Shown: piece by piece, positions 7,207 to 56,610 of the stretch
How positions within the stretch are numbered: the stretch's first letter is position 1
Layout: each line of letters opens with the position of its first letter
Origin: Nitrosopumilus sp.
GTDB taxonomy: Archaea; Thermoproteota; Nitrososphaeria; Nitrososphaerales; Nitrosopumilaceae
NCBI GenBank assembly: GCA_965218785.1
Contig: OZ244650.1
Span: 1,216,001 to 1,280,000, forward strand
Direction of reading: 5' to 3'
Length of the DNA: 64,000 nucleotides
Made by a program: the position numbers and the translations under genes
Notes under the pieces: model-generated
What the model was told of the DNA's origin: nothing
Seen by the model: the letters and a program-made list of their open reading frames with translations, nothing else
Databases searched by the model: none

Positions 7207-7207
7207 T

Positions 7208-9239: not shown

Positions 9240-9251
9240 ACAGGAGAAAAG

Positions 9252-11889: not shown

Positions 11890-14800
11890 TTAGCCAAATA
11901 GTGATTGGAACCATCTGATGATCTGCTCAAATATGTTATAACTGCGTTTGGGTTCTGGTGTATCAGGTCCTGGGTAAGGATCCACTGGCAATGGTACTGG
12001 TATTTCTGGTACTGGTATTTCTGGTACTGGTATTTCTGGTACTGGTATTTCTGGTACTGGTATTTCTGGTACTGGTATTTCTGGTACTGGTATTTCTGGC
12101 GTTGGTTCTGTCCTGTCTGTAGACTGTGATTCACCATCTTCAGATGTTACAGCAATGTTGTACGCCGTATTACTGTGTGCAGAGAGGGTTATTCCACGGT
12201 TGTCCTGCAAGAACATGCTGAGACGGCCTGAGAACTCGTCATCAAATGGTATCATGATACTGTTAAAACGCTTTCCAGTTGAAAGAAGGGATTCAAGGTA
12301 TGATACCTGTGTCTCAGATATGATCGAGGCGTTATCACAGACATAAAGATTATCTGTTGCGTATTCCTTGCCGGTACATTCCTCATGTGCAAGAACATTT
12401 GCAATCAACATGTACTGTATCAGGGCAGCAGGTAATTGCGGTACTGCAGGATCCGAGAGGATGATCTCCATCTTTAGGATGTTCTGGCGTGCGTCAATGG
12501 GCAGTATACGTGGTGTTATTGTAAGTGATGCGTCAGGTTCAAGCGTTATCTGGGATGGGACTGTCAATACGTTTTCTCCGTTGGATGTAAAGATGAAGGA
12601 CAGGTCATAGGGCGAACCTCTGCCGTCGCCGCCACCGCTGCCTCCGCCGCCGCCGCCGCCGCCGCCTCCGCCGCCTCCGCCTCCGCTACCTCCGCCGCCT
12701 CTTCTAGGAGTGGGGTCTGGTTCTACTGGGTCTGTTCCCTCATCAACAGGTGTTGTTGTTGGTGGTGTTGGTGGTGTTACCAGGTTTGAGCCAAATACTG
12801 TAAAGTGTGCAGTCCAGATTATCAGGTCACTGCCAGTGTTTATGAAGCACTCTCCTGCGCTGTTAAGCTGCTCTGATACAGGGGTAAGATCATCGCCATC
12901 ACACGCTGCAGTTATCTGGGTAGCTGCTGCGCCGCCCTCAGAGTACCATGGAACGTTGCCTGCCTGTCCTCCAAGCTGTATCCGTATCGGTTTATCCGTA
13001 TTTATCACAGAGCCTGCCTGTCCTATCTCGATGCAGGATGCCTGTGCACCAGAAGTTATTGCAGTGGAATCACAGCCGGATCCAGAGTCAGTTGGCAGAA
13101 TCAGTATTCCATCAAAGGTAGAAGAGCTAAAGCTGGTGAAGGCAGGGATTGTCACCCGGATGTCCCCTCCACGTATACCTGTCGCAGTTACTACAATCTC
13201 GTTGTTTGTCGTAGCAGTTGGAGTCACTGATTCGCCGTCTATCAGTGATGAATAATCCAGCGTGGCATCTACTGTACTTGGATATTTGACTGTGGCAAGG
13301 GTGGAATCAAAATCAGTGACTGCGATGCGGTTATCAGTAGCGTCAAGTACGACGTTGACTTCTGCTGTTACCGGATAGTCTTCTAGTGGTGAGAGCGCCG
13401 ATGTAGAGTCTGATGTCTTTGTTGGACCAGATACGTCGATTGTGGCAGTGGTTCCGGCTGGGGTAGTTGAGAGGGTGAGTGATATGACAGTGTAATTGGC
13501 ATCATCGGGAGTGGCATCAATAAACGAATCTATTGTATGGGGCGTGCCAGCAGGTGACATTACGTCATCATAATGGGTGGCATCCGTAGTTACTAGTTTG
13601 CTGTAGATTATGGTGATTATATTATTGGAGAGCCTTGCAGATACTATCTCAGGTACTTCCGCATCAACTGTGATGGTATATGTGTTAGATGCCGTGTTTT
13701 GGTTACCTGCAGGATCTGCTGCCACATTTTCAGGTACGGATACTATTACCGTACCATCAGATGTAGTCACCACATCAAAGGTGTATGAGATGTCTGCCGT
13801 AGCAGTTTCAAAGTTTGATGGTACCGGTGCACCACCTGATGCCGTTCCGGATATTATGATATCTGCCACATCAAAGCCTGGCACAGGCTCGTTGAAGGTG
13901 ACAGTGTAGGATGCGGTGGTGTCAGTAAGTGTGGTGTCGCCATCAGCGATATCAGCGTTAGTTATGGTTACAGTTGGGCGGGTGGCATCATCTACGTTGT
14001 TTGTCACAGGCAGGGCAGCAAATGCCGCAAGTGCGTTTCCTGCAGCATCAGTTATGGCATCACCAACTGCGTAATTTATCGTGGGTGTGTCCCCGAGCGA
14101 TATCTGGGTATCCACAGTTATGGTTACGGTAGTTCCAAGTATTACAGTACCAGTAACTGTATTGCCAGGTACGGTAAAGACCGGGGTAGCCGCAGTTCTT
14201 GCAAGGAATTCGGATGCAGTAAGTACGATCGTATTCGCATCACTAGTTACAGCAGCTACGATGGTTGGTACAGTCGTATCAGGACCTAAAACCGCAAGTG
14301 TCTTGATGGTGTTTGGAGTGTCAGTGTTTGCTATTACAGATGGAAGATCTCCTCCGTATACGAGTGCCAGCGTATCATCATCATCATCATTTACACTGAC
14401 AAGCGAGTTGAATGCGCCATTTGCCGTGTCATGCTCGAATGGGTCACCACGGGCAGTCAGACCGGTGGATGATATGTCATATAATCGGATAAAGCCGTCT
14501 GCATCATCTCCCCTGTACGCAAGTGCCAGCGTATCAGAATCCAGCAGTGCCAGCGAGTTGATATGTACCTGCTCTTCAAATTCGGCAGCTGCAGATGTGG
14601 TCTGATATGTAGCAGCGTTAGTTCTTCCGGTAAAGCCACCAGATGAGGTAACATCAAATACCTTGATGGTACCATGCCCGTCATCTGCTAATGCGGCATC
14701 ACCAATCGCAGAGTATGCGACTGCCACAGTGTCACTATCCACCCGGACAAGGGAGTGGTATGCCGTCCTTCTGGAATCATGTTCAACGGCATCTATGACA

Positions 14801-50800: not shown

Positions 50801-51090
50801 GCAGGTGTGTCAGTGTGGGTAATGAAGATGTTCAGTGATGTGGCATCAGATATGGCAGGTGTGTCAGATTCGGCAAGGGTGTTATCGCCTGGTGCATTGG
50901 TGATCTGTATATCTGATTCATCAGATATGACAGGTGTGTCAGTGTGTGTAATGGAGATGTTCAGTGATGTGGCATCAGATATGGCAGGTGTGTCAGTGTG
51001 TGTAATGGAGATGTTCAGTGATGTGGCATCAGATATCACAGGAGAGTCAGATTCGGTGATGATGCTCGCACCTGGCACGGTGTTTGCCAC
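11890..51090 (-). CDS. Giant multidomain cell-surface protein, 13,066-aa main ORF; its true N-terminus is probably at 52727
   Basis: 39.2-kb uninterrupted ORF. It contains dozens of Ig-like domains (YTxTFSExVxxF..DAAGN), SwmB-like repeats (TIVITASEPL..TDxAGNxLAxF..VTN), ITVTF..LNY..LNGG domains, NHL propellers, a Gly linker, a Pro-rich stalk and the C-terminus KRSYNIFEQIIRWFQSLFG. Confidence 0.95.
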   Translation of the reverse strand: MANTVPGASIITESDSPVISDATSLNISITHTDTPAISDATSLNISITHTDTPVISDESDIQITNAPGDNTLAESDTPAISDATSLNIFITHTDTPAISDESDILTINAPAVTDILATGGPYKEGDIIEITVTFDQSVTLSGVLHLTLETGDDDAVVVYTSNTPGTELAFQYTVAAGHNSADLNYVDTTPLVLSSGTIVASTGGVAADLSLPAATDTASLGGRSAVIVDTEAPTVIISNDVVADNGTSPTDTVSYTVTFNEPVTGFDMDDIAVSGTAFSMLGASNFATVMAGTTYTFDVVTLSDGTVIVSVPENVAADPAGNQNAASNTYTVAVDAAVPAIISARLSTNTITIIYNTPVTTILSDYDDLITTDSSTPTVTSVTGTTTDTILLTLSSAVPAGTTATIDIDGPVKTSASELVLEALVDYLVTAEETVELAGIDNRVIVTDPDSTLATITYPSTVDATLDYSSRIATTAEVSTVTTNEEIVVTAKGLRGGDVKVTVPAATVFSSPTFDGILVLPTDSDFDTGCNSAAITSGARASCIEIGQSNSVINTDKPIRIQLGDQAGNVPWYSEDGAAATQITTACAADNFASVSAQLDSGEECFIDVSPDLIIWTTHFTVFGSNSVSPIVTGVSAPSGSYTVGNKITITVTFNTPVSVSGTPPTLTLETGRIDAVVDFDRVADTGTQLIFVYTVAAGHNSADLNYADINSLSAGTGVITTRDGGSAVTLTLPATGSGDSLAGSSAVIIDTISPAVIISNTETANGGTTDSYTITYTATFTKPVTGFLDDVKDVLFDNTATASITSFSGSGTTYTIVVTATSDGIVKVTIPAGVATDTAGNRNAASNTYTVTTDMIAPEFISAATTSATTIAITASEPLAETDTEGIFAVSSNRVSNVAITGSTITLTVDTPIQFGDTPTVSYTGTDVTDVAGHALASFTPVSVTNNVPDPAIPTVDIIATDVSDGGATNSGTILYTATFDVPVTGFGDAATDVTVTGTADTTVSLPTGSGTTYAFTVTALTDGTADGTINVSIPAGAAAAGTVDNAASAIHSITLDTVAPAIVSATAVNSNNNIYVKTTEPIFTSPTTAEFSVSDNDVLGFRLQQHDTTNPGITLVLILAVTGDSQMVSYTGETLTDAAGNRLVQFTGVSVANTVDDMVRPAITISSPGNSNGDTILTDTVSYEVAFSEVVTDFILSDIIVSGTASQNLPTASNFEQPSLLTYTFDVVTTGDGTLTVSVPANVAADVSDNQNTLSNLFIVTVDTPIVVPPTIHVISQIDSADLPDNGYRHSMTQLVGNYYISLHTVTGPNSNPALLNYHTTLRLYTITDGQISLIGSQVINTVTEDINQPTTELGGPPRPAALVRIDDDTIAVSYVRTFGDGLASTVTTFDVAYSVTHFTPSQSINFQTGATGGQTDDHSMILFDAGRLIIAYSHPVNSSGGFIQDINIGTNGALSVGVPVSITDNDGRYPSLVKLDNDTVIVAYTDSNRDRGEDTSTGPKEVVPIELTSSRFVGAEGFIRTFDVSSSGTPVFTPRADALAHELDVTERDVMDPKIIIRIAYNSLVRIDDSTVALAYSEIGFNNIKDDGQGHIKIFDVAAADGTVTQRGDTVIYYNDAAAAPYDERVHLNSLAMLDSDTLALAYRGAGGDGFIQTYAVRSTGPVATGGPFEHDTADGAFNSLLRIDDNTLALAYGGDLSTQIGNTATPNSIKTFAVVDTEDDTTAPTIVGSTTPDDTTIVLVADEYLVGTVIANDVTVSGNMVSADPVISGLEIIITVDTPLTDGNTVTVEYSGGDITDVVGNTLGTFASHSVTVAIPPPTSHSIFERDSVALPDNGYRHNLVRLTGEYYVSSHTVTGPNADSALWDYSTVLGLYTITDGQITQIARQVIGTATIQSKTAPITELSSPRSTALTLIDADTIAVSYVDASTSRVATYDVDTSSDTTPFTNPRSIGLETGLYGTQTHNHSLIALDPNLLMIAYSYLDSDPSAIIQAVSINPRTGALIGDNGTTSTYADTQGQYTSMVRMDANTFVVASRGDSDTPGLVQAFDYVSNEIKFTARPALDYSDGARTAYNSLIKVNDDTLALAYSEIGTAGNRSDGNGKLKIFDMTENGVITELDSLTYYNAAASAASEQRVHLNSLAMLNPDTLAVAYRGEDGDGFIQTYEIDRVTGVLTSTNDAPFEHDTADGAFNSLVRVNDNTLALAYGGDLLSAIPDFTATPNIIKTLVAIDPGTSSPVIVSAVASNANTIVFTASEPLEGSTAVDDYTIDGNTVTNPVISDNTITITVGTAIPPGGTVAVDYDGDTITDAAGNTLATFDAQSATNTVPTVTITNTALANGGDTTSAVLSYTAVFSELVTGFNDAATDITLGGAAATVTSITGSGTTYDFVVTATGDGALTVSIPAGAAADAAGNDNTASNTYRITVDITAPVFSSIAVPDGFTIVITASEPLTGNTVTARDFVLTGSSTISNIVISGSTITLTVGPVIPAGGTVTIGYSGNTITDLAGHALAPFGPQSVTNTVPTVILTNDDTANGGHTTSGTLSYTAVFSKNILGFGDASTDIALSGSARTATVSIPTGDGGITYTSPVDDITYTFTVVASTDGTVTVQIPANVAIDTAGNLNTASATHTVTFDSMAPAVISAATTNEITIVINTSEPLAEITTAGIFTVTSSNTVTSNTVTSNTVAGTTTISGNTITLTVGTPIVSSDVLTVSYAGTDITDVAENALAAFDMEPVTNNVPSTTDLTDHTISNIHSVDLPDNGYRHNLVQLTDNHYVSSHTVSVSAGSGTWNHNTDIRLYSITDGQISLIGSQTVATVTENSGDNTNDVREDPRSTSLVRIDDDTVAISHVRTNTVTQGGTTTVSQVGTVTTFDVDTTSTTTPFGNPNSVDYRTGENGGQISSQSLTLFDANTLVIVYSHPNGSPDGFIQDINIGSGGALTAGAPVTVTTAQGRYPSVVTLDANTVVVAYRVGGAAGTIQAFDVSPGSADVFDAGTVVPLIHDAGRTAYASLVRIDATTVALAYSDIGTNITGDGEGRLKIFDVATDGTITQRGATVTYYNDAADAAFERIHLNSLVLLDDDTLALAYRGADGYGFIQMYNILSSGLTEAGGPFEHDTADGAFNSLAQVDDETLALVYGGDLPETLPLDAAASNTIKTIAAILTGSDTVLPTITSATTPDENTILLTASERLVGTTTAEVFEVSENIVSDDPVVADDPVVAGDPVVAGRTITITLDMPIVVGSTVTVRYTGDTIFDGSANALATFDSQPVTNTVYGVTAVSAEDRTVNAGDTLDITVTFSGPVTVIGTPQLLLETGTDDALADYTHSDSGTDLVFRYTVLAGHDSDDLNYVDTDSLLLNGGSISSSDGTTTTPANLALPATDSGESLAGGSAVIVDTVVDTTGSTIGTHVHTIGRLGTGDGVFNTPRGITTTPTNILVSDSLNHRVQIFDLSGNYLSQFGSFSTTNGVFNAPGAVTTTSENILVADSFNHRIQVFDLDGDYRSSFGSSGTGNGKFNIPLGITTNSTHILVADTFNNRIQVFDLEGNYQSQFDNSGVDIIQRDDGEGNTVDFDRGVLVRPNDITANSTHILVADTSNHRIQIFDTAGTRVNIIGSSDASSGTGNDRFDTPRGITTNSTHILVADTFNNRIQVFDLDGTYVSTIGSSGTGNGLFNAPGGVTTNSTHILVADTGNHMMQVFDLDGTHIRSFGSSGTGNDQFNTPRKITATSTNILVADTFNNRVQVFDLNGGYLHQFGRSSTTNGVFNTPGAVTTTSENILVADRNNNRIQVFDLDGTYQDQFGSIGNGNGQFNIPRGITANSTHILVADTGNNRIQVFDLDGTYLRHFDNSGITDGAFNTPIDISTTPTNIMVADTYNNRIQIFDLDGTYLSSFGSFGTDNGQFNFPEGITVTHEHILVADTGNNRIQIFDINGIHVSTIGNSDASSGTGNNQFDRPQGIATNSTHLLVADSGNDRIQIFDLALSVLITAAGTVHGGTYNTGTVSYTVTFSEDVDDFVVGDITVSGTASGSAPAATNFAGSEDTYTFEVAATSDGTITVSVSEDVATDAAGRDNVASAPYSITVDTAAPAVTITTGAAANEGSTNFRTITYTATFNEAVSGFDAAAYITLGGTATATAATPSGDGTTYTFDVTATSDGTVTVSIPADATEDAAGNGNIESDTYTVTVNTVPPIGTFVQSIGSSGPGDGEFNNPYGVATTPTNILVADTLNHRIQVFDLDGTYSNQFGNIIQQFDENDVLLRQYGNSGSDAGHFFNPRGITATSTNILVADTGNARVQIFDLQGTFVRQFGILGSNNGEFIRPSGITTTSTNILVADNLNDRIQVFDSDGRFVSKIGSPGANDGQFSRPEAITTNSTHILVADTRNDRIQVFNMDSDFVSTIGSRGTANGQFDDPVGIATTSTHILVADTLNHRIQVFDINGNFVSTIGSSGTSSGTGNNQFDSPRGITINSTHLLVADSGNNRVQIFDLAPTVTITTDTANGGTHSTGTVSYDVVFSEDVTDFAVADITVSGSASGGSPTASNLMGTESTYTFDVMTTSVGTVTVSIPESVATDTAGNANLASAAYSVTVTTAVTTVAPTVVSVSASDGSYSEGDSINITITFSESVTVGGIPQLTLDTGGVARHVPGAPGTTQEFSYTVAAGQNSGNLNYDSTTSLALNGGSITATADSNIDAVLSLPATTDTASLGGSDVIVDTAAPTVTITNDDGIADNGISLTDTVSYTVTFNEPVPGFGVDNIAVSGTASGGAPVASSFATVITDPADTTYTFAVATSSDGTTSSDGTVIVSVPENVAEDPAGNQNEASNTYTVTVDAAVPEIVSARLSNNIITIIYSKLVTTDASHYDDVMSPAGMPHTIDSFIDATPDDANYTVISLILSTTPAGTTATIDIAGPTKTSDSTSALSPLEDYPVTAENAIILDDTDDRIAVTDPDSTLATIKYPSTVDATLDYSSLVASPGGIPTVTTNTEIMVTATGLRGGNIQVTIPADTSFSSPTFDGILVLPADSDSDTACNSAAIDSGVQASCIEIGQAGSVVNTDNPIRIQLGGQAGNTPWYSQGGAPAIQITTACDADDVTSVSTQLTGDQECFIDVDTDLIIWTEHFTVFGSNLVGVAGPTATISTDDAVNGGTAISDVIFYTVTFSETVTDFVDADDITLGGTATATVSEPTPAESPADDTTTYNFVVTATTDGTVIVTIPVDAAEDASNNGNAASDPYTVTVDSPVQFAGKFGSRGEADGQFQIPVSLTTNSTHILVADTNNNRVQIFDLDGSFAGKFGSRALVPSNPGNSEFSNPSGIAVNSTHIMVTDLNHHRVQVFYLNGTYANEFGSPRTSFTIGPGLFDSPVGITANGTHILVVDSFHHRVQVFDTDGVFDSAFGRDAFETGERYHSIAMNSTHILVTETSNDWVDVFDSAGNYLNTFGSNGTANGQFDSPTGIIMENNLIYIADFNNDRIQIFDSDANFVGKFGSFGTGDGRFDRPSGLATNSTHILVADHGNSRIQTFLLDSDITSVSADDGAYKEGGIIDITVRFDEAVDVGVADGTPPTLTLDTGAIVEYTSGTGETDLLFQYTVAAGENSADLNYVGTDSLALNGGTITATTHDDTLILRLPAVTSANSLAGSSDVIVDTAEPTFDFAMTTDETTIVITASEPLDETMTAGTFSVATKTVTGTTEISDNTITITVDPAIVSTDTLMVSYNAAAGGVTDLAGNALATFGPETVTNNVIAIAAFANVFGGIGTLDGEFMAPYGITTNSTHILVTDFGSSRIQIFDLDGIFAGTFGSNGDANDQVTAPIGITTNSTHILVVDSGNHRIQIFEHDGTPAGRFGSEGTGDGEFTTPYGIATTPTHILVTDSGNPRVQIFEHDGTFVSSFGSQGTTTIGEFTSPEGIATTSTHILVVDSGNDRVQMFEHDGTPVSTFGSFGATDGLFDDPSGITTTPAHILVVDSENDRVQAFNHDGTFVSSFGSQGTGEGEFTTPEGITTNSTHMLVTDLFDSRIQTFVLTPTVLITATGIPDGGATNSDTILYTATFSEDVTDFGDAVTDVTVSGPTGTTVTTPDGTGTTYTFTVTPANEGTIEVSIPAGAAADTAARGNVASAIHTVTVDTTAPTFTSAGTIEVHKTTPVERMTYLDKAASLRTIEIISTEPLIGSLRINQFSVPGNQVLTASLQNSNIRLEVFAPISDDSQTVSYTGNTITDDVGNPLASFRNEMIDPIISDDLGPDATISSTTDDGTTTRSTIISYTVIFTEAVPDFVISDITVGGTADVGTSPVSNFVNLDTARYTFDVMVTGDGTLDVSIAAGATTDAAGNDNTASNVYTVTVDATAPTISSAQTTDASTIVLTASEPIMGTAAVGDFTLDTNTSTDVPVVDGRTITLTVNTAIVNADTIMVDYNGNAMITDVAGNTLAAFDDRTVSNDLSTLPLTVSITATDTPDGGIHTSNTASYTVTFNKVVADFVASDISLTGTAPRGASPITNFAGSGNVYMFDVTATSDGTLVVSIPAGVATDEDNNLNPASNMHTITFDIFIPIAAHFNSIGRSGSADGEFDSPRGVTVNDSHILVADTNNDRVQVFNIAGSYEDQFGTSNPFVPSIGFVNPPPGGTFSNLRGITVTPDNILVADSNNDRIQIFDLQGTYLSQFGSLGEANGRFNFPSGITANSTHIIVADTHTHRIQVFDMDGEFVSKFGGIGTVNNRFNLPGGVAVTPTNIIVADTGNNRVTVYDLDGNYLSKFGRGGSGDTQFSSPTGVAATSTHIIVADTGNNRIQVFDLDGNYFYTIGGTGTGRAQFSGPTAIALTSTHMVVADTGNNRVQTFGLAPTVTITADTPDGGIHNLDTVSYTATFNVDVIDFDVTDILVSGTASGGSLVPSNFAGTGNTYTFDVVTASDGMVTVFIPKFAARTGGGQDSMASNQYTVNVMDIPTVTGVSAAAPGTHVPGETVDITITFDESVDVTDTPQLTLETGDTDAMADYLSGSPGTDLIFRYTVAVGHLSDDLNYVDTGSLRLNGGTIFTTSDTTVPASLVLPATDSLNSLAGSSDVIVTSPLSVVSLSDTVTGGTGIITSSNTVSYAVTFSASVADFIESDIVVSGTAAAAASGGTLEASNLAGTGGTSYTFDVVTTGDGTVLATIPAGMTTDAAGNGNTASDTHTVIVDVETLTVTISSTTPDDNLQTGDTVSYTATFSEDVTDFAESDIRVTGTASGGTPATSNFEEISATVYTFDVVTTSDGTVLVTILAGVATDAAGNGNVVSATYTVTADTTAPVFSHVVISNAITIVFTASEPLGGSVAADDFEVSDNTIFGVPVISDSTVTITVGTAIPDGGTVTINYTSNTITDLAGNALARFDARSVTDTGPTVTLTNDDTINNRDTNSNTLSYTAVFSKPVTGFGTSDITVTGSASVGTPAASNFVEISGGTVYTFDVVTTSDGTVKVTILAGVAEDIAANGNAASNTYTVTVDTVSPTVTLTAGTRVIRDGGTAQPVTVVCVPPEGETVCVIPADDPSQPETVVQSGDEYMIAGVIRDDGTSQPGTVVQLGEEYIIAGMIRDDGTFQHVTVLCREIPEGETACVVPEDRMSQPGTVICEVPPVGANVCVVPEDSRYLHETISYTATPDGGTQSSETISYTATFSESMRDFDIFDIMVTGTASDNSPVVSNFVVNHTTVYTFDVTTTGDGTVIVTIPEGVATDAAGNGNVASDPYTVTVNTTMVTVTLDSPTPDDNLQTGDTVSYTSIFSEDVTNFDETGITVTGSASGGAPAISNFVAINATAYTFDVATTGDGTVTVMIPADAAMVPAGKTLTASDPYTVTVDTIAPVFSSAVVHDAYTIVITALEPLAGTVNREHFGVSVNTISNTISDNTLVGNLEISGSTITINVDNAIPIDSTVTVSYHGTTITDLAGNALVTFSLRSVTNDNVPTVTLTNDDTINGSTADSRTLSYTVQFSEPVTGFGDQETDIALSGTARTATVSIPIEDDKVTYASTVDGITYTFTVVASTDGTVTVQIPAAVAIDAGGNLNEASGTHTVTVDAAAPVFVSAATVTPTMIAITTSEPLVGTVTASDFVMTGNAFTAVPVIFGNIITITVDTEITSADDITVSYPVSSSDITDAAGNPLAVFTPQAVINNVPGAADPTDHIISPVHSVELPDNGYRHDLIHLTGNYYVSSHTVSVYTGIATWNHNTDIRLYSITDGQISLIGSQTVATVTDRPIIFTTQEVDPPTDPPTDPQIVAITPEDSGENTDDAREDPRSTSIVRIDDDTIAISHVRTDTDSTEGTVTTICHPVRGCPFISTVTLMPEVAAITTFDVDTTSMTPFGNRNSVDYRTGDTGGQISSQSLIAFDADTLIITYSHSNSSPDGFIQAIRVAPDGMLTAGEAVSITADQGRYQSAVKLDADTVVLAYRGADAAGHIQAFDVSSGGASVLTPRTAIPHDAGRTAYNSLLQIDDSTVALAYSEIGTPSTTDGMLDATGGITTTSTNILVADTGNSRIQIFDLDGTHVSQFGSNGTGNNQFYSPRGITTNSTHILVADTGNHRIQIFDLDGTYVNQFDGSGTGNGEFIFPRGITTNSTHILVADTGNHRVQVFDLDGTYVNQFDGSGRGNGLFNGPSGIITTSTSILVTDTGNNRVQVFDLDGTYLREFGGSGTGNGAFIFPRGITTTSTSILVTDSGNHRVQILNLDGTYRSQFGSSGTGNGEFNTPLKITTTPTSILVADTGNNRVQVFALDGTYRSQFGTPTDDGVGRLKIFDVATNGAFTQRGATVTYYDNAADAAFEERIHLNSLAKLDDDTLAVAYRGADAGGFIRVYDVTTTGLATAGGPFEHDTEDGAFNSLVRVDDDILALVYGGDLPETLPSNVASTNTIKTIAAIVPGTDIKVPTIESGITTDDVTIVLVASERLVGTASAEVFSVSNNGIPADPIVAGRTITITVNGTILSGSTVTVGYTGDTITDGSNNALETFTSQSVTNTVTAAPEGSFIATYDHTIGYRSLNPGPGDGQFDRPRGITTTSENILVSDSLNHRVQIFDSDGTYQSQFGTSSPTNGVFNAPRGVATNSTHILVADTNNHRIQVFDLEYNYISQFGSFGVDVIQPDDSIIRAENGKFSAPYGITTNSTHILVADTGNDRIQIFDLVGNHRSSFDNSGVDVIQRQNRDGVMADFDRGMLSLPQGITTTSTNILVADTGNHRIQVFDLSGTHVSTIGSSGTGNGQFSHPQGITTNSTHILVSDTNNHRIQVFDLGGTHVRTIGSHGTGDGEFDRPRGITVNSTSIIVADTGNNRMQVFDLDGVYQDKFGSPGTGNNQFNTPRDITTTSTSILVADSNNNRIQVFDLDGTYLSQFGTPNPTDGVLNTPRGITTNSTHILVADSNNNRIQVFDLDGAYQDQFGSLGTGDGQFNTPRGVATTSENILVADSLNHRIQMFDLDGSYVDQFGSYSATYGITYGPPEHTTEVIPENTFTGTPEHTRQVGPDSRDGSDCTIVTCLAYGPLEDPPGGQFNAPREITANSTHILVADTGNHRIQVFDLDGNYLRQFGNFGAGNGQFNFPEGLAITPTNILVADTENNRIQVFDLDGNYLDTIGRSDASPGTGDNQFDRPRGITATSTHLLVADSSNNRVQLFDLAPTVTITADTANGGTQNTATVSYDVVFSDAVTGFVVGDITVSGTASDGAPTASNLAGIRDTYTFDVVTTNAGTVTVSIPESVATDTAGNANLASDTYTVTVDADAPRFISVATPDVNTIVITVSEPLVGSVDTGDFTLDGNMINADPVVDGSTITITVVTPLTPSDRLTVSYGGDALTDAAGNRLVSFTNQNVPVILQDLTRPTVTLSTATSNGGTQNTDTISYTATFNETVSGFAIGDIMVIGSASNGAPVASAFVKTSTTVYTFDVVTTGDGTVTVTIPDDVAADTTTNGNMASAPYTVTVDTIAPTVTLSTATSNGGTQNTDTISYTATFSEDVMGFMLTDVGVAGTASGNSPSASNFAITSATVYTFDVATTGDGTVRITIPSNSAMDMAGNGNTAPGVYTVTVDTTGPSITGVSATNGSYSTGETVDIIVTFNEKVIVSGVPQLTLETGTDDAVVDYTTGTGGTALTFSYTVEATHTSDDLNYVGTDSLDLNGGTILAFDNDVPASLALPALDSDDSLAGSYAVIVDTEAPEFRSAATSSTTTVVITASESLDVTSDVTGLTVPGNDVSGTPEISGSTIIITVVTEIIPGATFTVSYGGTGITDVAGNALTQFTAESVTNNVSDTTGPTATLTSGTTDGTTTNSATISYTVTFNETVIGFDTASDIMVSGTATAEASAPTVSGTDYIFDVTASTDGTVMVTIPADAAADAANNGNTASDTHTVTVDITAPVFSSASTVTATTIEIIASEPIMGSAAITEFTVLPGNNVSGDVVLSGSTITITVDTSIVFGDAPTVEYTGSGITDAVGNQLAGFTAQTVTNNVPSTIAPNVNSVSATGGPYNAGDTVDITVTFDETVNVTGTPQLSLNTGTTAGYSSGTGTAAIIFQYDVISGHNTDDLSYVGTISLTLNSGTIVAVDDGAIANLVLPPITSSDSLGGGSAVIVDTVVPTVTITNADTDDNGTTASNTITYTATFSEDVTGFDDASDITVSGDAGPTAAAPTGSGDTYTFTVTATTDGTVVVSIPTGAATDPAENGNTVSEDYTVTVDTTAPGVTLSSTTTITNGGTQNTATVSYTATFDMAVTEFAVSDITVTGTASGGSPTASNFVATSPTVYTFDVVTTDDGTVIVTIPANVATDAAGNDNTVSATYTVTVDTTGPTVILSSDTSSGGTQNTATVSYTATFSEPVMGFVIGDIGVTGTASDNSPAASGLLPTSTSVYTFDVATTGDGTVQIAIHPNRVTDVAGNSNTASSVYTVTVDTTGPSITGVSATTNDSYSTGETVDIIVTFNEKVIVSGVPQLTLETGTNDAVVDYTTGTGGTALTFRYTVAATHTSDDLNYVGTGSLDLNGGTILAFDNDIPADLTLPVLTSADSLAGRSAVIVDTEAPEFVSVATRDATTVVITASETLDGTTTATDFTFSDGNVSDNAVLSGSTIIITVDTEIIPGATFTVSYVSSGITDVAGNALTQFTTPSVTNNVSDTTSPTATLTSATPDGTTINTGIISYTVAFDEVVTGFNTASDIMVSGTAAGTASAPIVSGSEFTFTVTASNDGTVVVSIPVDAAADEAGNGNTASATHTVTVDITAPVFSSATTLTARTIEVTASEPIMGSAIATDFTVLPSNTVSGNVVVSGSTITITVDTSIVFVDAPTVAYMGSGITDIAGNTLATFTAQTVTNNVPNPDAPNVDSVSATGGPYNAGDTVDITVTFDAPVDVNETPQLLLETGTADASAGYFSGTGTAAIIFQYTVISGHNTGDLNYVGTGSLTPSGGSITATGGTALANLVLPSTTSADSLGGTSAVIVDTVAPTVTITNADTADGAITNAGAITYTATFSETVTGFAASDITLGGTATATAAAPAGSGDTYTFTVTATTDGTVVVSIPTGAATDTAGNANTASGMYTVTVDTGGSSVLLSTATSDDGKQNTNTISYIAVFNDPTTNFVLEDIVVTGTASGGSPTASNFVATSPTAYTFDVVTTGDGTVIVTIPANVATDPAGNGNDASRVYIVTVDTIAPTVILSSTTPDGSIHNANTITYTATFSEDVTGFDAVSDITVSGTAGPTVAAPAGSGDTYTFTVTTTTDGTVTVSIPADAATDAAEDAAVGEVGNGNTASGDYTVTVNTAVPTVTITANVADGASTNDGSVFYTATFSEDVTGFDAVDDITVSGTAAATLTTPTGSGSTYTFAATTLNGGIITVLIPADVATDAAVGEVGNGNTASATYTVTVNPISQINSLDLTPGGYRHNLVHFTGDYYVSSHTVTRANSDDAALWNFDTVLNLYSIIGGDITLIGSRTVETRTQDKTTTINEFTTHPRSTAVTAVDDDTIAVTYVAGSTSRLRTYDVDTASTTAPFGVSVLTSIGIVLDGQQTHNHSLVTLDATRLVVAYSYPDASPDNYIQIISIDPDNGALSFGTVTALGANNNGQYSSLVKLDDDTVIVAYRGDTQKAYLQAVDILADDTITVIDAVEHDSRRTAYHSLVRVDSDTVAVAYSAIGDAALADDGHGTIKVFDVTSSGGFTGRTNAATYQTTSAAAEFEEQVHINSLALLDSDTLALAYRGDDADGFIRLYDISSTGLTARGDPFEHDTANGAFNSLVSVNDDDDDTLALVYGGDLPSVIANTDTPNTIKTLAVLGPDTTVPTIVAAVTSDANTIVLTASEFLARTAATPVFTVPGNTVTGTVILGTTVTITVDTQISLGDTPTINYAVGDAITDAAGNALAAFAALPVTNNVDDATRPTVTITNADIADGDTTLTDTTASYTVTFNEPVPGFDVADIIISGTASGGAPVPSNFETATADISYTFDVVTTSDGTVIVSVPENVAADPAGNQNTASNTYTITVDAEVPEIVSARLSNNIITIIYSKLVTTDATHYDDVMSPAGTPHTIDSFIDATPDDANYTVISLTLSTTPAGTTATIDVSGPTKTSDSTSALSPLEDYPVTAEVNVVLDATDNRIAVTDFDSTLATVKYPSTVDATLDYSSLIDGESVTPTATTNNEIVVTATGIRGGDIRVTIPAFTSFSSSTFDGILILPTDSGSGCDSTAITSGAQASCIEIGQAGSVINTDKPIRIQLGGQAGNVPWYSEGGAAATQITAACDGDDLTPVSEQLNSAGECFINTGSDLIIWTAHFTVFGSNLVTPPTPPTTTPVDEGTDPVEPDPTPRRGGGGSGGGGGGGGGGGGGGGSGGGDGRGSPYDLSFIFTSNGENVLTVPSQITLEPDASLTITPRILPIDARQNILKMEIILSDPAVPQLPAALIQYMLIANVLAHEECTGKEYATDNLYVCDNASIISETQVSYLESLLSTGKRFNSIMIPFDDEFSGRLSMFLQDNRGITLSAHSNTAYNIAVTSEDGESQSTDRTEPTPEIPVPEIPVPEIPVPEIPVPEIPVPEIPVPEIPVPLPVDPYPGPDTPEPKRSYNIFEQIIRWFQSLFG
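11993..12097. repeat. Perfect 15-bp tandem repeat x7, encoding (EIPVP)7
   Basis: (GGTACTGGTATTTCT)7, read directly. Confidence 0.95.
12620..12700. repeat. Poly-Gly linker (GCC/TCC trinucleotide tract on the + strand)
   Basis: Encodes RRGGGGSGGGGGGGGGGGGGGGSGGGDGRG. Confidence 0.9.
12780..13365 (-). other. HFT domain copy 3 (4 Cys, ends IIWTAHFTVFGSN)
   Basis: HFT codons at 12799-12807; homologous to copies 1 and 2. Domain boundaries approximate. Confidence 0.8.
16500..21100. repeat. Internal tandem duplication of a multi-domain Ig/SwmB block, period ~2.57 kb
   Basis: GATCCCATAATGGGTTCTGATGCG occurs at ~17351 and ~19919; AAGGCAAGTATGGTTCCGCCGTTTAGGTCAAGTGAG at ~18116 and ~20684. Confidence 0.75.
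22195..40850 (-). repeat. Seven NHL-repeat beta-propeller clusters inside the giant gene (approx. 22195-24110, 24840-25670, 30585-31440, 33030-33850, 34520-35365, 37620-38510, 39140-40850)
   Basis: ~46-aa blade consensus GxGxGQFNxPxGITTNSTHILVADTGNHRIQVFDLDG. The first and last clusters have roughly twice the blade number. Confidence 0.9.
35700..36285 (-). other. HFT domain copy 2 (ends IIWTEHFTVFGSN)
   Basis: HFT codons at 35719-35727. Domain boundaries approximate. Confidence 0.8.
49210..49790 (-). other. HFT domain copy 1 (ends IIWTTHFTVFGSN)
   Basis: HFT codons at 49228-49236. Domain boundaries approximate. Confidence 0.8.
50780..51060. repeat. 54-bp/18-aa imperfect tandem repeats (HTDTPAISDATSLNISIT)
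   Basis: Repeated TCAGATATGGCAGGTGTGTCAG at the start of the main ORF. Confidence 0.85.
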
Positions 51091-51323
51091 GATATCTGGT
51101 CGGTGTCTGCAAGTTGGTTTCCGGCAAGATCAGTGATGGTACCACCAGAGTATGATACACGTGATATCGGGTCCAGACATTATTGCGTGTGCCCACAGTC
51201 AGGGTTATGGTACGGCCACTGTATCGTACAGTACCGATTGGTCACCGTTATGGTTATGGTACGGCCAGCCACAAGGGTAAAGTTACTTCCTGAAACAGTA
51301 AAGACTCCTGCAGTAGCAGTTCC
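51091..51323 (-). pseudogene. Corrupted SwmB-like domain joining the two parts of the giant gene
   Basis: An in-frame TGA follows ASETL. GTATAGVFTVSG..AGRTITITVT then continues in frame, while SGRTITLTVG, VSYSGGTITDLAGNQLA and VANTVPG require successive frameshifts. Confidence 0.8.
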
Positions 51324-52727
51324 TCACAAGGTTTCTGATGCAGTAAATACGATCGTGGTATCATCAGTGGTGGTAGCAGATCGATGGTTGGCGGCTTCTG
51401 TATCAGAGCCTGCAGCTATAACGGCAAGTGTCTTGATTGTGTTGGGAGTATTAGCAGTATTACGTGGTATAACCAGTGGAAGATCCCCTCCATACACTAG
51501 TGCCAGTGTGGTATCATCTACCTTAACAAGCGCGTTGAATGCACCGTTTGCCATATCATGCTCAAATGGTCCGCCTGTCTCAGTCAGACCGGTGTCGGTT
51601 ATATCATATATCCGAATAAAGCCGTCGCCGTCTTCACCCCTGTATGCGACTGCCAGCGTGTTAGAGTCCAGCAGGGCCAGTGAGTTGAGGTGTACACGTT
51701 CCTCAGATGTCGCGTCTGCCGCGCCATTATAATACGTTACAGTCTCACCCCTTTGTTCAACTATGCCATTTGCATCAACATCAAATACCTTGATGCGTCC
51801 AGACCCGTCATCTGTAACTTTATTGTTGCCAATCTCAGAGTATGCAAGTGCGACAGTGGTACCATCTACTCGGACAAGGGATGCATACGCCGTTCTGTCA
51901 TCATCGTGTTCAAGGTCTTCGACGGAATTGGCAGTCAGCACGGGCGTGCCAGTAGATGAGACATCGTATGTCCGTATGTGTCCATCGGCACCGCCATCAC
52001 GGTATGCGACTACAACCGTGTTATCATCCAGGGTTACCACGGATGGGTACCGTCCCTGGTTCGAGGCAAGTGATACAGGAGTACTGGCACTCAGCGCGCC
52101 ACCATCGGCAATGCTGATAGTCCGGATAAAGCCATTAGCAGGGATTCCTTGCGAGTATGCAAGTATCAGCGTGTCTGCATCAAGTGTTGTCAAGGACTGA
52201 CTAAATATGTCTCCGCCACCGGGATCCTCAGCATATTCTAGAGTCATTTCATTGTCAAATGGCGTCGTCATAGAACTGGGATCAACATCATATGTTGTAA
52301 TATAGCCTGAATGAATAGCGGTAACACCGACCACATATGAAACGGCAATTGTATTATTATCTACGGCTGTAATAGAGGTAGCTCTTGGATTCGAATTTGC
52401 ATCAGTAGTAGGGATATTTTCATTTTCACCAGTAGTACCCACTAGCTGGCTGCCAATCACTGAGATCTGCCCGTCAGTTATGGAGTATAGTCTGATAACG
52501 GTATCATGATTCCGAGTGGTAGTACCCGAAGTTACAGTGTGTGAGGAGACATAGTAGTTCCCATCAAGATGTACCAGGTTGTGTCGGTATCCGTCATTTG
52601 GAAGGGCAAGTGAGTCTATTTTAGACAGGACATTAGTTGTGGTCTGGGCATGCGCATCTGATAGTGCCATTCCGGCAGAGAAGGTAAAAAGTATCGCAAG
52701 CAGGCCAGCAAGAGATAAAAGCATCAT
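51324..52727 (-). CDS. N-terminal part of the giant surface protein: Sec signal peptide plus one propeller-like module
   Basis: MMLLSLAGLLAILFTFSAGMALSDAHA|Q signal; the LPNDGYRHNL..TLAVAYRG..PFEHD..NTIKT module is homologous to five copies in the main ORF. Confidence 0.85.
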   Translation of the reverse strand: MMLLSLAGLLAILFTFSAGMALSDAHAQTTTNVLSKIDSLALPNDGYRHNLVHLDGNYYVSSHTVTSGTTTRNHDTVIRLYSITDGQISVIGSQLVGTTGENENIPTTDANSNPRATSITAVDNNTIAVSYVVGVTAIHSGYITTYDVDPSSMTTPFDNEMTLEYAEDPGGGDIFSQSLTTLDADTLILAYSQGIPANGFIRTISIADGGALSASTPVSLASNQGRYPSVVTLDDNTVVVAYRDGGADGHIRTYDVSSTGTPVLTANSVEDLEHDDDRTAYASLVRVDGTTVALAYSEIGNNKVTDDGSGRIKVFDVDANGIVEQRGETVTYYNGAADATSEERVHLNSLALLDSNTLAVAYRGEDGDGFIRIYDITDTGLTETGGPFEHDMANGAFNALVKVDDTTLALVYGGDLPLVIPRNTANTPNTIKTLAVIAAGSDTEAANHRSATTTDDTTIVFTASETL

Positions 52728-52888
52728 GGGACATCAAAAGGGTCGTTGCCACGGTACGGCAATATGTAAGATAACCCTCTCCCATAATCACTACAATTTA
52801 AAACCAAACTGTATTTTTGAGGTAAATACCGCTTAAAAAGATATTCTTAGATCAGGCGTAAATGTTAGGTTCAGATAAATGTAATTGC

Positions 52889-52929
52889 TATGATCAGTCC
52901 GATCTAAACGATCTGGTGTGGATTCAGGG
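52889..52929. repeat. Imperfect ~41-bp repeat; inverted partner of 11601-11642
   Basis: Shared core TATGwTCArTCCGATCTAAA. Confidence 0.55.
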
Positions 52930-53195
52930 TCACACTCAAATCAAGAGTTTATGAGATGAGACTGACAGAGAAAAGATAGCAGATTGGCAGACATGTTGCA
53001 GATAATAGAGGAGTGAAAACTTGTAATCATAAAACTAGTTTGTACCCAAGATGATGTGATGGTCTTGCAAAGCTCAAAAACACGGATGAAGAAGGAGGGC
53101 GTGGTAGGGGGAGGCAGTAACATTTTCTTGAGAATTTTTTTGATACCGAATCCAATTCCATCTTATAACTAAATTCGTAATAATTATATTCTATT

Positions 53196-53263
53196 ATGTA
53201 ATTTATTACATGATATTAGGGAACTATATAAATAATAAATATATGGTATGTTACCAATAACAT
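53196..53263 (+). promoter_or_regulatory. Two ATGTWA-N4-TWACAT palindromes bracketing a TATA box; probable autoregulatory operator
   Basis: ATGTAATTTATTACAT at 53196-53211; TATATAAAT at ~53225-53233; ATGTTACCAATAACAT at 53248-53263, overlapping the ATG. Confidence 0.65.
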
Positions 53264-53615: not shown

Positions 53616-53698
53616 TCTGTGATTTTTTTTGATCAATGTCTTGATTTGAAAAGACGGGAATTGACAGGTTATCTAGTATTTTTTCTTCTTTCTTTTTC

Positions 53699-56567: not shown

Positions 56568-56610
56568 ACAGCAAATACTCTACATGATTTTTATATCTTT
56601 GTGGTGGTGG

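What the first reader, a model, noticed from the sequence alone, without database searches (positions are those of the whole stretch)
11890..52727. A single ~41-kb gene (~13,600 aa if joined) for an archaeal surface mega-protein
Seen: a signal peptide at 52727, an acidic, Thr-rich, Lys-poor body, and an alternation of rod-like Ig/SwmB-like spacers with globular propellers. The gene looks more GC-rich than the AT-rich defence genes around it (by eye, not computed). Known: SwmB-type giant proteins occur on cyanobacterial surfaces, and NHL repeats are among the eukaryote-like repeats enriched in sponge symbionts. Inference: a very long fibrillar adhesin or shield displaying more than a dozen binding heads, possibly for host interaction or predator avoidance.
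Basis: partly seen in the sequence, partly recalled or inferred. Interest (0 to 1): 0.75.

Follow-up and report, generated by a model that had tools for sequence, protein, structure and literature searches.

The report
Giant modular surface-protein gene, Nitrosopumilus archaeon
An ammonia-oxidising archaeon carries an uninterrupted 13,066-codon gene for a rod-and-knob surface protein, one of a fast-evolving family that fills about 7% of its small genome, although in this assembly its export-signal end is cut off by a short cluster of mutations.

Summary
The giant ORF is real. Window 11890..51090 (minus strand) is an open frame of 13,066 aa from GTG, or 13,079 aa stop to stop. It is not one gene as assembled. 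The 467-aa ORF that carries the signal peptide (51324..52727) is separated from it by 233 nt holding an in-frame TGA and at least three frame changes. Five paralogues in this genome, and an 18,683-aa colinear ORF in a second Nitrosopumilus genome, run through the equivalent point in one frame. The two ORFs were therefore once one gene. Whether the break is real or an assembly fault was not resolved.

The giant ORF contains:
- about 64 Ig-like modules (Big_12, SWM_repeat and unnamed types);
- 9 six-bladed NHL propellers;
- 5 copies (a sixth in the upstream ORF) of an unnamed 440-aa, seven-repeat module;
- 3 copies of an unnamed 300-aa module;
- a conserved C-terminal domain, a proline-rich stalk and an amphipathic tail.

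Internal DNA repeats are at most 90% identical, and the module order matches the second genome, so a repeat-driven misassembly is unlikely. Against that genome dN/dS is 0.6-1.35. Synonymous divergence is far below that of housekeeping genes in most of the gene, and there are no stop codons. This points to a translated, fast-diversifying, recently exchanged surface protein. The adhesin or shield function is inferred, not shown.

The parts
11890..51090 (-). Giant ORF: 13,066 aa from GTG 51090 (13,079 aa stop to stop from 51129), no internal stop
51324..52727 (-). Upstream ORF, 467 aa: signal-peptide-like N-terminus plus one U module, ending at TGA 51326-51324
52647..52727 (-). Signal-peptide-like segment MMLLSLAGLLAILFTFSAGMALSDAHA. 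It is conserved at the start of five paralogous giant ORFs and of the G041 18,683-aa ORF
   Evidence: read from the sequence; no predictor was run
51091..51323 (-). Junction: remnant of an Ig-like module, broken by the preceding TGA, a stretch of about 40 extra nt with a duplicated 15-mer, and +1, +1 and +2 insertions relative to the intact G041 homologue
50762..51050 (-). Short tandem peptide repeats (SDATSLNISITHTDTPAISD type), DNA periods 54 and 129
49201..50094 (-). X module copy 1 (aa 346-643), no Pfam match
45844..47277 (-). U module (aa 1285-1762)
44308..45627 (-). U module (aa 1835-2274)
41503..42843 (-). U module (aa 2763-3209)
39127..40812 (-). Two six-bladed NHL propellers (aa 3440-4001)
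37603..38457 (-). NHL propeller (aa 4225-4509)
35692..36597 (-). X module copy 2 (aa 4845-5146)
34498..35313 (-). NHL propeller (aa 5273-5544)
33007..33801 (-). NHL propeller (aa 5777-6041)
30568..31392 (-). NHL propeller (aa 6580-6854)
28225..28668 (-). Unique 148-aa segment (aa 7488-7635) with no internal relative and no Pfam match above cut-off
24355..26649 (-). U module (aa 8161-8925) split by an inserted NHL propeller (aa 8496-8762, window 24844-25644). The insertion is absent from the G041 counterpart
22180..24057 (-). Two NHL propellers (aa 9025-9650), the second with a 62-aa insert
15514..22179 (-). Long rod made only of Ig-like modules (aa 9651-11872; types I, J and K)
14203..15513 (-). 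U module (aa 11873-12309)
12772..13671 (-). X module copy 3 (aa 12487-12786)
11935..12771 (-). C-terminal region: Pro/Thr linker, Gly run, conserved C-terminal domain of about 170 aa, and PEIPV x7 stalk (DNA tandem 11992-12099)
11893..11934 (-). C-terminal 14-aa amphipathic tail IFEQIIRWFQSLFG. The motif lies at or near the end of 9 ORFs of this genome and of the G041 giant ORF

Best explanation
This is a real, very long protein-coding gene of an ammonia-oxidising archaeon of the genus whose one named relative here is Nitrosopumilus.

Its product is a fibrous, modular cell-surface protein. About 64 Ig-like beta-sandwich modules form rod segments. These carry 17 globular modules: 9 six-bladed NHL propellers, 5 copies of an unnamed seven-repeat 'U' module, and 3 copies of an unnamed 'X' module.

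In the family, the protein starts with a Sec-type signal peptide followed by a U module. It ends with a conserved C-terminal domain, a Pro/Glu-rich stalk and a 14-residue amphipathic tail.

Most likely mechanism (inferred):
1. The protein is exported through Sec.
2. It is held at the cell envelope by the C-terminal domain and tail.
3. The stalk and Ig rods project the propeller heads a few hundred nanometres outward.
4. The heads bind ligands on other cells, host material or particles, or the protein acts as a variable outer coat.

The gene belongs to a lineage-restricted paralogue family that diversifies quickly and has recently exchanged segments with a second species.

In this assembly the first 467 codons (signal peptide plus U module) are cut off from the 13,066-codon frame by a 233-nt cluster of lesions. 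The locus is therefore either a very recently broken gene or locally misassembled. The ancestral state was one gene of about 13,600 codons.
For: SHOWN - the ORF and its modules:
- The frame is 13,079 codons with no stop.
- Pfam hits on 13 tiles of about 1,000 aa: NHL in 6 of 13 (100-262 bits against a cut-off of 20), Big_12 above its cut-off in 7 of 13, SWM_repeat above its cut-off in 2 of 13.
- My own HMMs, built from the protein itself, find 54 NHL blades (9 x 6), 34 + 20 + 10 Ig-like modules of three types, 5 U modules and 3 X modules.
- In each of 11 U copies, 6 blade-like repeats are detected, plus one divergent N-terminal repeat.

SHOWN - not a misassembly:
- Internal DNA repeats are at most 90% identical over at most 300 nt.
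- Module order is colinear with an independent genome's 18,683-aa ORF over most of the length. For example, ours 1026-4400 at mean 88% identity, 5002-5900 at 88%, and 6002-8500 at 79%.

SHOWN - the two ORFs were once one gene:
- Five paralogous ORFs of 4,301-6,504 aa in this genome begin with the same signal peptide and U module and continue without a break.
- All 49 U matches in G041 lie in frames of at least 3,236 aa. In G000, 19 of 20 lie in frames of at least 4,301 aa; the exception is this 469-aa frame.
- The upstream ORF, the junction and giant aa 1-200 are colinear with one continuous frame in G041, aa 8906-9671.

SHOWN - selection keeps the frame open:
- There are 2,217 nt differences over 7,802 aligned codons. 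That predicts about 22 new stops per branch if the sequence were unconstrained; none is seen.

SHOWN - fast protein evolution and recent exchange:
- dN/dS is 0.60-1.35 in 11 blocks. dS is 0.013-0.22 in 10 of them and 0.48 in the C-terminal block.
- In 4 of 5 control ORFs dN/dS is 0.014-0.21 and dS 0.39-1.78. In the fifth, dS was saturated and no ratio was obtained.
- Tracts of the giant gene are 98-99% identical at the nucleotide level, against 81.5% for rpoA'.

SHOWN - the C-terminal end is a family feature:
- The tail motif lies 0-35 residues from the stop in 9 ORFs of G000.
- The C-terminal domain gives 10 matches in G000 and 9 in G152, which is the same genome as G041.
- The tail's hydrophobic moment is 1.99 at 100 degrees, against 0.2 at 160-180 degrees.

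INFERRED: extracellular location, anchoring by the tail, and ligand binding by the heads.
Against: - No expression evidence could be obtained.
- As assembled, the 13,066-aa frame has no signal peptide and no hydrophobic run of 17 or more residues. If the break is real, the protein could not be exported by the route proposed.
- dN/dS near 0.7, equal in heads and spacers (Ig 0.73, U 0.66, NHL 0.65, X 0.77), fits relaxed constraint as well as it fits diversifying selection. It gives no sign that the heads are special binding surfaces.
- N-X-S/T sequons number 65 against 175 expected from composition. That is not what a heavily N-glycosylated archaeal surface protein would suggest.
- No structure could be predicted, so 'propeller' for U and any fold for X and the C-terminal domain remain unverified.
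- The tail matches no known sorting signal.
Confidence: 0.72

Rival explanations
1. The break is real. The gene is a very recently inactivated pseudogene, or a stranded remnant that is no longer exported, in this population.
For: - The break consists of an in-frame TGA, a stretch of about 40 extra nt with a duplicated 15-mer, and +1, +1 and +2 insertions relative to the intact G041 sequence.
- The indels are not at homopolymers (read).
- The rest of the assembly looks base-accurate: 39 kb here and the paralogues have no frame errors, and rpoA' aligns over 1,263 codons.
- No variant that removes the lesions between 51090 and 51330 was among the rows shown for three runs.
Against: - Five or six lesions lie within 300 nt and none in the other 39 kb. 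Ordinary decay would scatter them.
- One search showed only the best-supported rows (22 indel rows and 422 substitution rows were hidden) and used fragmented contigs, so it cannot confirm the lesions.
- In the same 300 nt, a compensated indel pair at 51392/51380 is replaced by the G041-like reading in one contig of run X1 (depth 151.5 of 248), so this stretch varies in the sample.
Confidence: 0.4
2. The break is a local assembly or consensus fault, for example a mixture of strains or near-identical paralogues. In the cells the gene is one intact frame of about 13,600 codons.
For: - The lesions are tightly clustered.
- The runs that hold the region show many strain-level variants. In run X1, of 811 laid contigs, 207 were at least 99% alike, 217 were 95-99% alike and 387 were 90-95% alike.
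- One indel pair inside the same stretch differs between the assembly and a contig.
- The frame downstream is perfectly kept, although about 22 stops would be expected without constraint.
- All family members elsewhere are uninterrupted.
Against: - No read evidence for an intact version was seen.
- The junction has no close donor elsewhere in G000; the next best match is 71% identical. A simple paralogue mix-up within this genome is therefore unlikely.
Confidence: 0.35
3. These are two working genes: a secreted 467-aa propeller protein and a separate 13,066-aa protein that starts at GTG 51090. The spacer between them is decaying freely.
For: Both frames are intact, and all the lesions lie in the 233 nt between them. 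That is what selection on two separate genes would produce.
Against: - The large frame starts without any export signal.
- No other stand-alone form occurs in the two genomes. 0 of 49 U matches in G041 lie in a frame shorter than 3,236 aa, and only this 1 of 20 in G000 does.
- No promoter or start-site evidence was obtained for 51090.
Confidence: 0.1
4. The great length is a repeat-driven misassembly.
For: The gene is highly repetitive at the module level.
Against: - The best DNA repeat pairs are at most 90% identical over 182-300 nt, and most are 60-85% identical.
- The order of diverged modules matches an independently assembled genome of another species over thousands of residues.
- There is no stop codon in 39 kb.
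Confidence: 0.03
5. The function is a hydrated protective coat or a decoy against viruses and grazers, not adhesion (halomucin-like or constant-diversity reading).
For: - The composition is acidic, Thr/Ser-rich and Lys-poor.
- dN/dS is uniformly high.
- Segments have been exchanged recently between species.
- The gene sits in a rearranged island with defence-type genes.
- The family occupies about 7% of G000 and about 10.8% of G041, computed from the frame lengths.
Against: NHL and other propeller heads are typical binding modules. No mucin-like low-complexity bulk is present: 84% of the length is assigned to folded-type modules.
Confidence: 0.25

Closest known systems
SwmB of marine Synechococcus (giant cell-surface protein; size and role recalled from memory, not from a call; named as a giant repeat protein in bioRxiv 10.1101/2023.11.21.568195, passages read)
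   Same: Protein of more than 10,000 aa in a small marine microbe. It shares the Pfam SWM_repeat type: my J-type module has 20 copies, and PF13753 is above its cut-off in 2 of 13 tiles.
   Different: According to the passage read, SwmB has a single repeating domain along its length. Here at least six module types alternate, including three kinds of globular head. The organism is an archaeon. No SwmB sequence was compared.
[quoted passage not shown]
   Same: Giant archaeal protein with an N-terminal Sec-type signal, thought to surround the cell.
   Different: This ORF is longer (13,066 aa), and its G041 relative is 18,683 aa. It is built of NHL, Ig-like, U and X modules. No sequence comparison with halomucin was made.
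Giant repeats-in-toxin adhesins of Gram-negative bacteria (long Ig-like 'extender' with ligand-binding modules; recalled, not from a call)
   Same: The same design logic: tens of Ig-like spacers that project binding modules away from the cell.
   Different: No RTX repeats appear among the Pfam hits in any of 13 tiles. The heads are spread along the whole length and not grouped at one end. The family has a Sec-type N-terminal signal and a C-terminal anchor-like end. An archaeon has no outer membrane.
Huge proteins (5,000 aa or more) of Thaumarchaeota with SGL/Lactonase propeller domains in UniProt (PMC11573180, passages read)
   Same: Same phylum, with propeller-bearing huge proteins.
   Different: That survey gives no lengths or architectures for them in the passages I read. 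A word-indexed search of 5.8 billion proteins of 5,494-17,483 aa found only one relative (5,656 aa, 30% identity, 19% of the query covered).
Animal TRIM-NHL propellers (Drosophila Thin 6d69, TRIM71, TRIM2/3, Brat), the closest solved structures for one head
   Same: Six NHL blades. The match to 6d69 gives two overlapping alignments of 167 and 155 bits.
   Different: The similarity is in the repeat consensus only. There are no TRIM parts (RING, B-box, coiled coil). I draw no transfer claim from it, because solved structures are mostly eukaryotic.

Membership tests
NHL repeat (PF01436), six-bladed propeller | Repeated 28-residue NHL motif above Pfam's cut-off, in groups of six | tested here: met
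   Found in 6 of 13 tiles at 100-262 bits (cut-off 20). 54 blades fall into 9 groups of 6. Solved NHL propellers match.
Bacterial Ig-like domain Big_12 (PF19078) | Domain of about 100 aa above the 27-bit cut-off | tested here: met
   Found in 7 of 13 tiles at 37.5-87.1 bits. My own HMM finds 34 copies.
SWM_repeat (PF13753), the SwmB-type repeat | Repeat of about 86 aa above the 27-bit cut-off | tested here: met
   Above the cut-off in 2 of 13 tiles (33.2 and 30.5 bits) and below it in 2 (20.5 and 18.5). All four hits fall on J-type modules.
SwmB protein family (orthology) | Full-length similarity to SwmB and a single repeat type throughout | not tested
   No SwmB sequence was fetched. The mixed architecture differs from the single-domain description read.
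Archaeosortase/exosortase substrates (PGF-CTERM, PEFG-CTERM and the like) | C-terminal motif plus a transmembrane helix plus a basic cluster, and a sortase gene in the genome | tested here: not met
   The last 586 aa have no NCBIfam match at E <= 0.001. The tail is 14 residues long with no transmembrane stretch. PF09721 is not found in G000, which is 97% complete.
RTX adhesins secreted by type I systems | RTX nonapeptide repeats near the C-terminus | tested here: not met
   No such family appears among the Pfam hits at E <= 0.01 in any of 13 tiles.
Sec-exported protein | N-terminal signal peptide on the same polypeptide | tested here: inconclusive
   A signal-like N-terminus is present on the 467-aa ORF and on five paralogues, but it is not joined to the 13,066-aa frame in this assembly. 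No predictor was available.
Beta-propeller fold for the U module | Seven four-stranded blades closing a ring | tested here: inconclusive
   Six blade-like repeats are detected in each of 11 copies, plus a divergent first one. A profile search finds 1,502 representative proteins at E <= 0.001, 110 of them at E <= 1e-30. In 10 of these no Pfam family covers the repeat, with only weak Lactonase and LVIVD hints.
Halomucin | Sequence similarity to Hqr. walsbyi halomucin | not tested
   No halomucin sequence was compared.

The most novel reading that the evidence does not exclude
These genes form a lineage-restricted, laterally exchanged 'surface mega-protein' system of two Nitrosopumilus species:
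- It has its own new building blocks: a seven-repeat U head, an X head, and a C-terminal domain with an amphipathic tail that would be a new archaeal envelope-anchoring signal.
- It includes what may be the longest open reading frames yet seen in Archaea (13,066 aa here; an 18,683-aa frame, stop to stop, in the relative).
- It takes up 7-11% of a 2-Mb chemolithoautotroph genome.
- Under diversifying selection, it would set which partner, host surface or virus the cell meets.
Probability: 0.3. Interest if true: 0.8.

Novelty: new variant of a known kind. Interest (0 to 1): 0.62.

Why it matters
Ammonia-oxidising archaea of this genus have small, streamlined genomes. Spending 7-11% of one on a handful of giant surface proteins implies a strong ecological pay-off that is so far undescribed.

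The family offers three things:
1. New extracellular modules and a candidate new anchoring signal for archaeal envelopes.
2. A clear case of recent exchange between species of a 40-50-kb gene. In most of the gene its synonymous divergence is roughly 2 to 100 times below that of housekeeping genes.
3. A test bed for how very long repetitive genes are kept open while their residues change almost freely.

It is also a practical warning. Such genes are absent from the large protein collections searched here, probably because fragmented assemblies cannot hold them.

Tried and rejected
No fold could be obtained for U, X or the C-terminal domain, and no fold search was run.
- Solved structures by sequence: nothing meaningful for X (best E 0.096) or for the U profile (best E 0.021). 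The C-terminal region matched only through its Gly run, to linkers of engineered proteins.
- Pfam at E <= 1: X and the C-terminal region had no hit. The unique 148-aa segment, one 122-aa module and the N-terminal repeat region had only hits below the cut-offs.
- The search for homologous proteins with the C-terminal 294 aa, 'longer' (516-2,000 aa): none of 4,045 candidates scored. The tool itself calls this weak evidence.
- Cluster look-up of 8 relatives: all come from unnamed ENA or Logan assemblies, with no names.
- Expression: no RNA holder was listed. This is not evidence either way.
- Reads: three runs from two studies hold the stretch only as short, strain-mixed contigs. The junction was neither confirmed nor corrected. 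Hidden rows (22 indel rows, 422 substitution rows) may bear on it. A joint 44163->51195 seen in one contig of each run has only 24 letters on its shorter side, so I did not use it.
- Donor for the junction inside G000: none above 71% identity.
- Foreign origin from GC content: rejected.
- Head-specific selection: rejected, because dN/dS is alike in all module classes.
- Transfer from animals, on the strength of the TRIM-NHL match: rejected as a repeat-consensus effect in a library biased towards eukaryotes.
- tRNA and Rfam scans of the window: nothing found.
- Literature: 'giant proteins' + archaea + Nitrosopumilus gave 0 papers. Nitrosopumilus + 'giant protein' gave 0 papers. A five-term search on sponge Thaumarchaeota, long reads and adhesins listed nothing on such genes, and PMC11525543 had no relevant passage. 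I therefore found no printed description of this family in the library searched. Supplements were closed; Supplementary Table S11 of PMC7848895 may bear on the domain counts.

Full report
WHAT IS IN THE SEQUENCE

On the minus strand an open frame runs from 51129 to the stop codon at 11890-11892. It is 13,079 codons stop to stop, and 13,066 from its first start codon, GTG at 51090. Upstream lies a separate 467-codon ORF, from ATG 52727 to TGA 51326-51324. Its N-terminus, MMLLSLAGLLAILFTFSAGMALSDAHA/QT, has a 20-residue hydrophobic core followed by A-x-A. By the usual -3/-1 rule that reads as a Sec signal peptide. This is my reading of the sequence; no predictor was available.

The large frame is 15.9% Thr, 8.8% Asp, 0.55% Lys and 0.2% Cys. 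D+E total 1,490 against K+R 380.

GC is 0.48-0.52 inside the gene, 0.34-0.46 in the flanks and 0.406 genome-wide. The excess lies at codon position 2: 0.50 against 0.36 +/- 0.05 in 584 ordinary ORFs. GC3 is 0.46 against 0.39 +/- 0.10. The excess therefore reflects the Thr/Ala/Gly-rich composition and not a foreign origin.

THE ORGANISM

The window lies in a 1.99-Mb genome of two contigs, 97% complete, that carries archaeal amoA at 392 bits. The only other species genome in which the full modules were found is titled 'MAG: Nitrosopumilus sp.' (OZ244579.1). It is G041, the same genome as G152, and is listed as the same genus. Habitat and host could not be tested.

ARCHITECTURE

I cut the protein into 13 tiles of about 1,000 aa and scanned them against Pfam:
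- NHL repeats in 6 of 13 tiles (100-262 bits; cut-off 20);
- Big_12 above its cut-off in 7 of 13;
- SWM_repeat above its cut-off in 2 of 13.

Large stretches had no family. HMMs built from the protein itself assign 84% of the length as follows:
- 54 NHL blades in nine groups of six.
- 34 Big_12-like modules (type I).
- 20 SWM_repeat-like modules (type J). One follows each U module.
- 10 unnamed modules of about 120 aa (type K).
- Five 'U' modules of about 440 aa, with a sixth in the upstream ORF.
- Three 'X' modules of about 300 aa.

One U module (aa 8161-8925) is split by a whole NHL propeller. The G041 counterpart lacks this insertion.

Each of 11 aligned U copies shows six blade-like repeats plus a divergent first one. 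This fits a seven-bladed propeller, but no structure could be predicted. The U profile finds 1,502 representative proteins at E <= 0.001 among 1.84 billion, 110 of them at E <= 1e-30. Full-length matches are limited to roughly the ten best hits. Ten distant hits carry no Pfam family for the repeat.

The best solved relatives of one NHL head are animal TRIM-NHL propellers. I take this as similarity to the repeat consensus only.

THE C-TERMINAL END

After the last X module come, in order:
1. a Pro/Thr linker;
2. a Gly run;
3. a domain of about 170 aa;
4. seven PEIPV repeats;
5. the final 14 residues, IFEQIIRWFQSLFG.

The tail motif lies 0-35 residues from the stop in 9 ORFs of this genome and at the end of the G041 giant. 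The C-terminal domain gives 10 matches in G000 and 9 in G152. One further genome, G012, has only a weak match. In all, 3 of the 151 genomes of the genus searched have a match.

The tail is strongly amphipathic as a helix: moment 1.99 at 100 degrees against 0.2 at 160-180 degrees. It matches no NCBIfam sorting signal, and no exosortase-family gene was found in the genome.

IS IT ONE GENE?

Not as assembled. Between the two ORFs lie 233 nt. In three shifting frames they still spell an Ig-like module.

A paralogue (aa 4489-4609 of the 6,504-aa ORF) and G041 (aa 8906-9500 of its giant) run through the same point in one frame. Against the G041 DNA, which is 83% identical overall and more than 90% identical on both sides of the break, this genome has:
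- TGA where G041 has GTA;
- about 40 extra nucleotides with a duplicated 15-mer;
- +1, +1 and +2 insertions.

The evidence that the ancestral state was one gene of about 13,600 codons:
- Five paralogues here (4,301-6,504 aa) begin with the same signal peptide and U module and continue unbroken.
- All 49 U matches in G041, and 19 of 20 in G000, lie in frames of at least 3,236 aa. The one exception is this 469-aa frame.
- The upstream ORF, the junction and giant residues 1-200 are colinear with G041 residues 8906-9671.

Whether the break is real is open. Five or six lesions in 300 nt and none in 39 kb is not the pattern of ordinary decay. It fits a single complex event, free decay of a spacer between two selected frames, or a local consensus fault.

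Three runs from two studies hold the region, but only as short, strain-mixed contigs. One compensated indel pair at 51392/51380 is replaced by the G041-like reading in one X1 contig. No listed row touches 51090-51330, and many rows were hidden. No donor for the odd stretch exists elsewhere in G000.

IS THE LENGTH AN ARTEFACT?

No.
- The best internal DNA repeats are at most 90% identical over 182-300 nt, and most are 60-85% identical.
- The order of the diverged modules matches the independently assembled G041 frame of 18,683 aa. That frame starts MMMLRLCLLVLLFAFSAGLVLSDAHAQT and ends ...IFEQIFRWLQSLFGFFSS. The match runs over long stretches, for example ours 1026-4400 at mean 88% identity, 5002-5900 at 88% and 6002-8500 at 79%.
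- Relative to G041, this gene lacks roughly G041 residues 450-3250 and 8508-9780 and has gained the NHL insertion. Whole modules come and go.

EVOLUTIONARY BEHAVIOUR

In 11 colinear blocks (7,802 codons, 2,217 nucleotide differences, 90.5% identity, with tracts of 98-99%), dN/dS is 0.60-1.35 and dS 0.013-0.48.

I used five ordinary ORFs of the same genome pair as controls. Four give dS of 0.39, 0.44, 1.48 and 1.78 and dN/dS of 0.014-0.21. In the fifth, dS was saturated and no ratio was obtained. rpoA' is 81.5% identical at the nucleotide level.

Two conclusions follow:
1. Most of the gene has been exchanged between the two species much more recently than their genomes diverged. The C-terminal part (dS 0.48) is less recent.
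2. Amino-acid change is almost unconstrained, yet the frame is kept open. With 2% of single-base changes creating a stop, about 22 new stops per branch would be expected without constraint, and none is seen.

dN/dS is alike in the Ig, U, NHL and X parts (0.65-0.77), so relaxed constraint and diversifying selection cannot be told apart here.

FAMILY AND CONTEXT

Frames that carry U or the C-terminal domain add up as follows (frame lengths):
- about 46,850 codons, or 7.0%, of G000;
- about 84,700 codons, or 10.8%, of G041, counting only frames with U modules. These include frames of 18,683, 15,627 and 12,110 aa.

Full U modules were found in 2 of 151 genomes of the genus. Four others have only partial blade matches. 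An earlier draw of 40 relatives had none.

A search of 5.8 billion proteins of 5,494-17,483 aa returned one distant relative.

The flanks hold an anti-phage dCTP deaminase, MADS3-like and IteA-like ATPase matches and a transposase. One flanking gene recurs next to the G041 giant but on the other side, and the rest is not syntenic. The gene therefore sits in a rearranging island.

HOW IT MOST LIKELY WORKS (inferred)

The proposed mechanism has four steps:
1. The protein is exported through Sec.
2. It is retained at the envelope through the C-terminal domain and the amphipathic tail.
3. The Pro-rich stalk crosses the surface layer.
4. The Ig-like rods display the propeller heads.

About 64 modules at roughly 4 nm each (a textbook figure, not computed here) would give a few hundred nanometres, comparable to the cell itself.

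The heads would bind surfaces, host material or other cells. Alternatively, the whole molecule serves as a variable coat against viruses and grazers.

Three observations count against an easy reading:
- the missing signal peptide in this assembly;
- the uniform dN/dS;
- a 2.7-fold shortage of N-glycosylation sequons (65 against 175 expected).

COMPARISON WITH WHAT IS KNOWN

The design resembles other giant surface proteins: SwmB, halomucin and the bacterial Ig-extender adhesins. It is a member of none of these that I could test.
- It shares one repeat type with SwmB.
- It lacks RTX repeats and known archaeal sorting signals.
- It has three unnamed module types.

Halomucin (9,159 aa) was called the largest archaeal protein at its publication (PMC4378361, passages read). 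A 2023 preprint reports that archaeal proteins above 10,000 aa are few and mostly in Asgard archaea (10.1101/2023.11.21.568195, passages read). A survey of UniProt notes propeller-bearing huge proteins in Thaumarchaeota (PMC11573180, passages read).

I found no printed description of this family in the searches named under Tried and rejected.

VERDICT

This is a real and unusual gene and a new variant of a known kind. The 'single gene' claim holds for the ancestor but not for the assembly, and the proposed function remains an inference.

Noticed in passing
window 24355-26649 (aa 8161-8925): One six-bladed NHL propeller (aa 8496-8762) sits inside a U module. The G041 counterpart has the U module uninterrupted (ours 8100-8491 and 8762-8992 align to G041 13207-13592 and 13589-13817). 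This is a domain-in-domain insertion.
   Followed up: yes
window 56605-56742: An interspersed element of about 140 nt has 23 hits in G000 (84-91% identical) and many in G041. It encodes a short transposase-like N-terminal peptide, so it may be an insertion-sequence remnant or a miniature element.
   Followed up: partly
window 2919-4415, 53755-55047, 61656-62513, 1304-2698: Defence-island content around the gene: an anti-phage dCTP deaminase (451 bits, above its cut-off), a MADS3-like AAA ATPase and an IteA-like ATPase (both below their cut-offs), and a transposase-like ORF.
   Followed up: partly
window 53114-53668 and 52645-53107: The 5' flank is a mosaic. 53114-53668 is 96% identical to G041:1620672-1621228. 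The promoter and signal-peptide stretch is 86-89% identical to the 5' end region of the G041 12,110-aa gene, not to the colinear 18,683-aa gene.
   Followed up: partly
G000:C1:707909-708295 and G000:C1:947865-948107: Short frames (129 and 135 aa) carry pieces of the family's C-terminal domain. The first ends with a tail identical to that of the giant ORF. They are probably gene fragments.
   Followed up: no
giant ORF, whole length: There are 65 N-X-S/T sequons where composition predicts about 175. This 2.7-fold shortage in a presumed surface protein is unexplained.
   Followed up: no
window 51380-51392: A compensated pair of single-base indels changes seven residues relative to G041 (EAANHRS against EAPTIDS). 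One contig of run X1 carries the G041-like version, at depth 151.5 of 248.
   Followed up: partly
G041:C1 (OZ244579.1) 1066664-1122712, 229-275 kb and 910-946 kb: The related genome holds open frames of 18,683, 15,627 and 12,110 aa of the same family. Only the first was fetched and read.
   Followed up: partly
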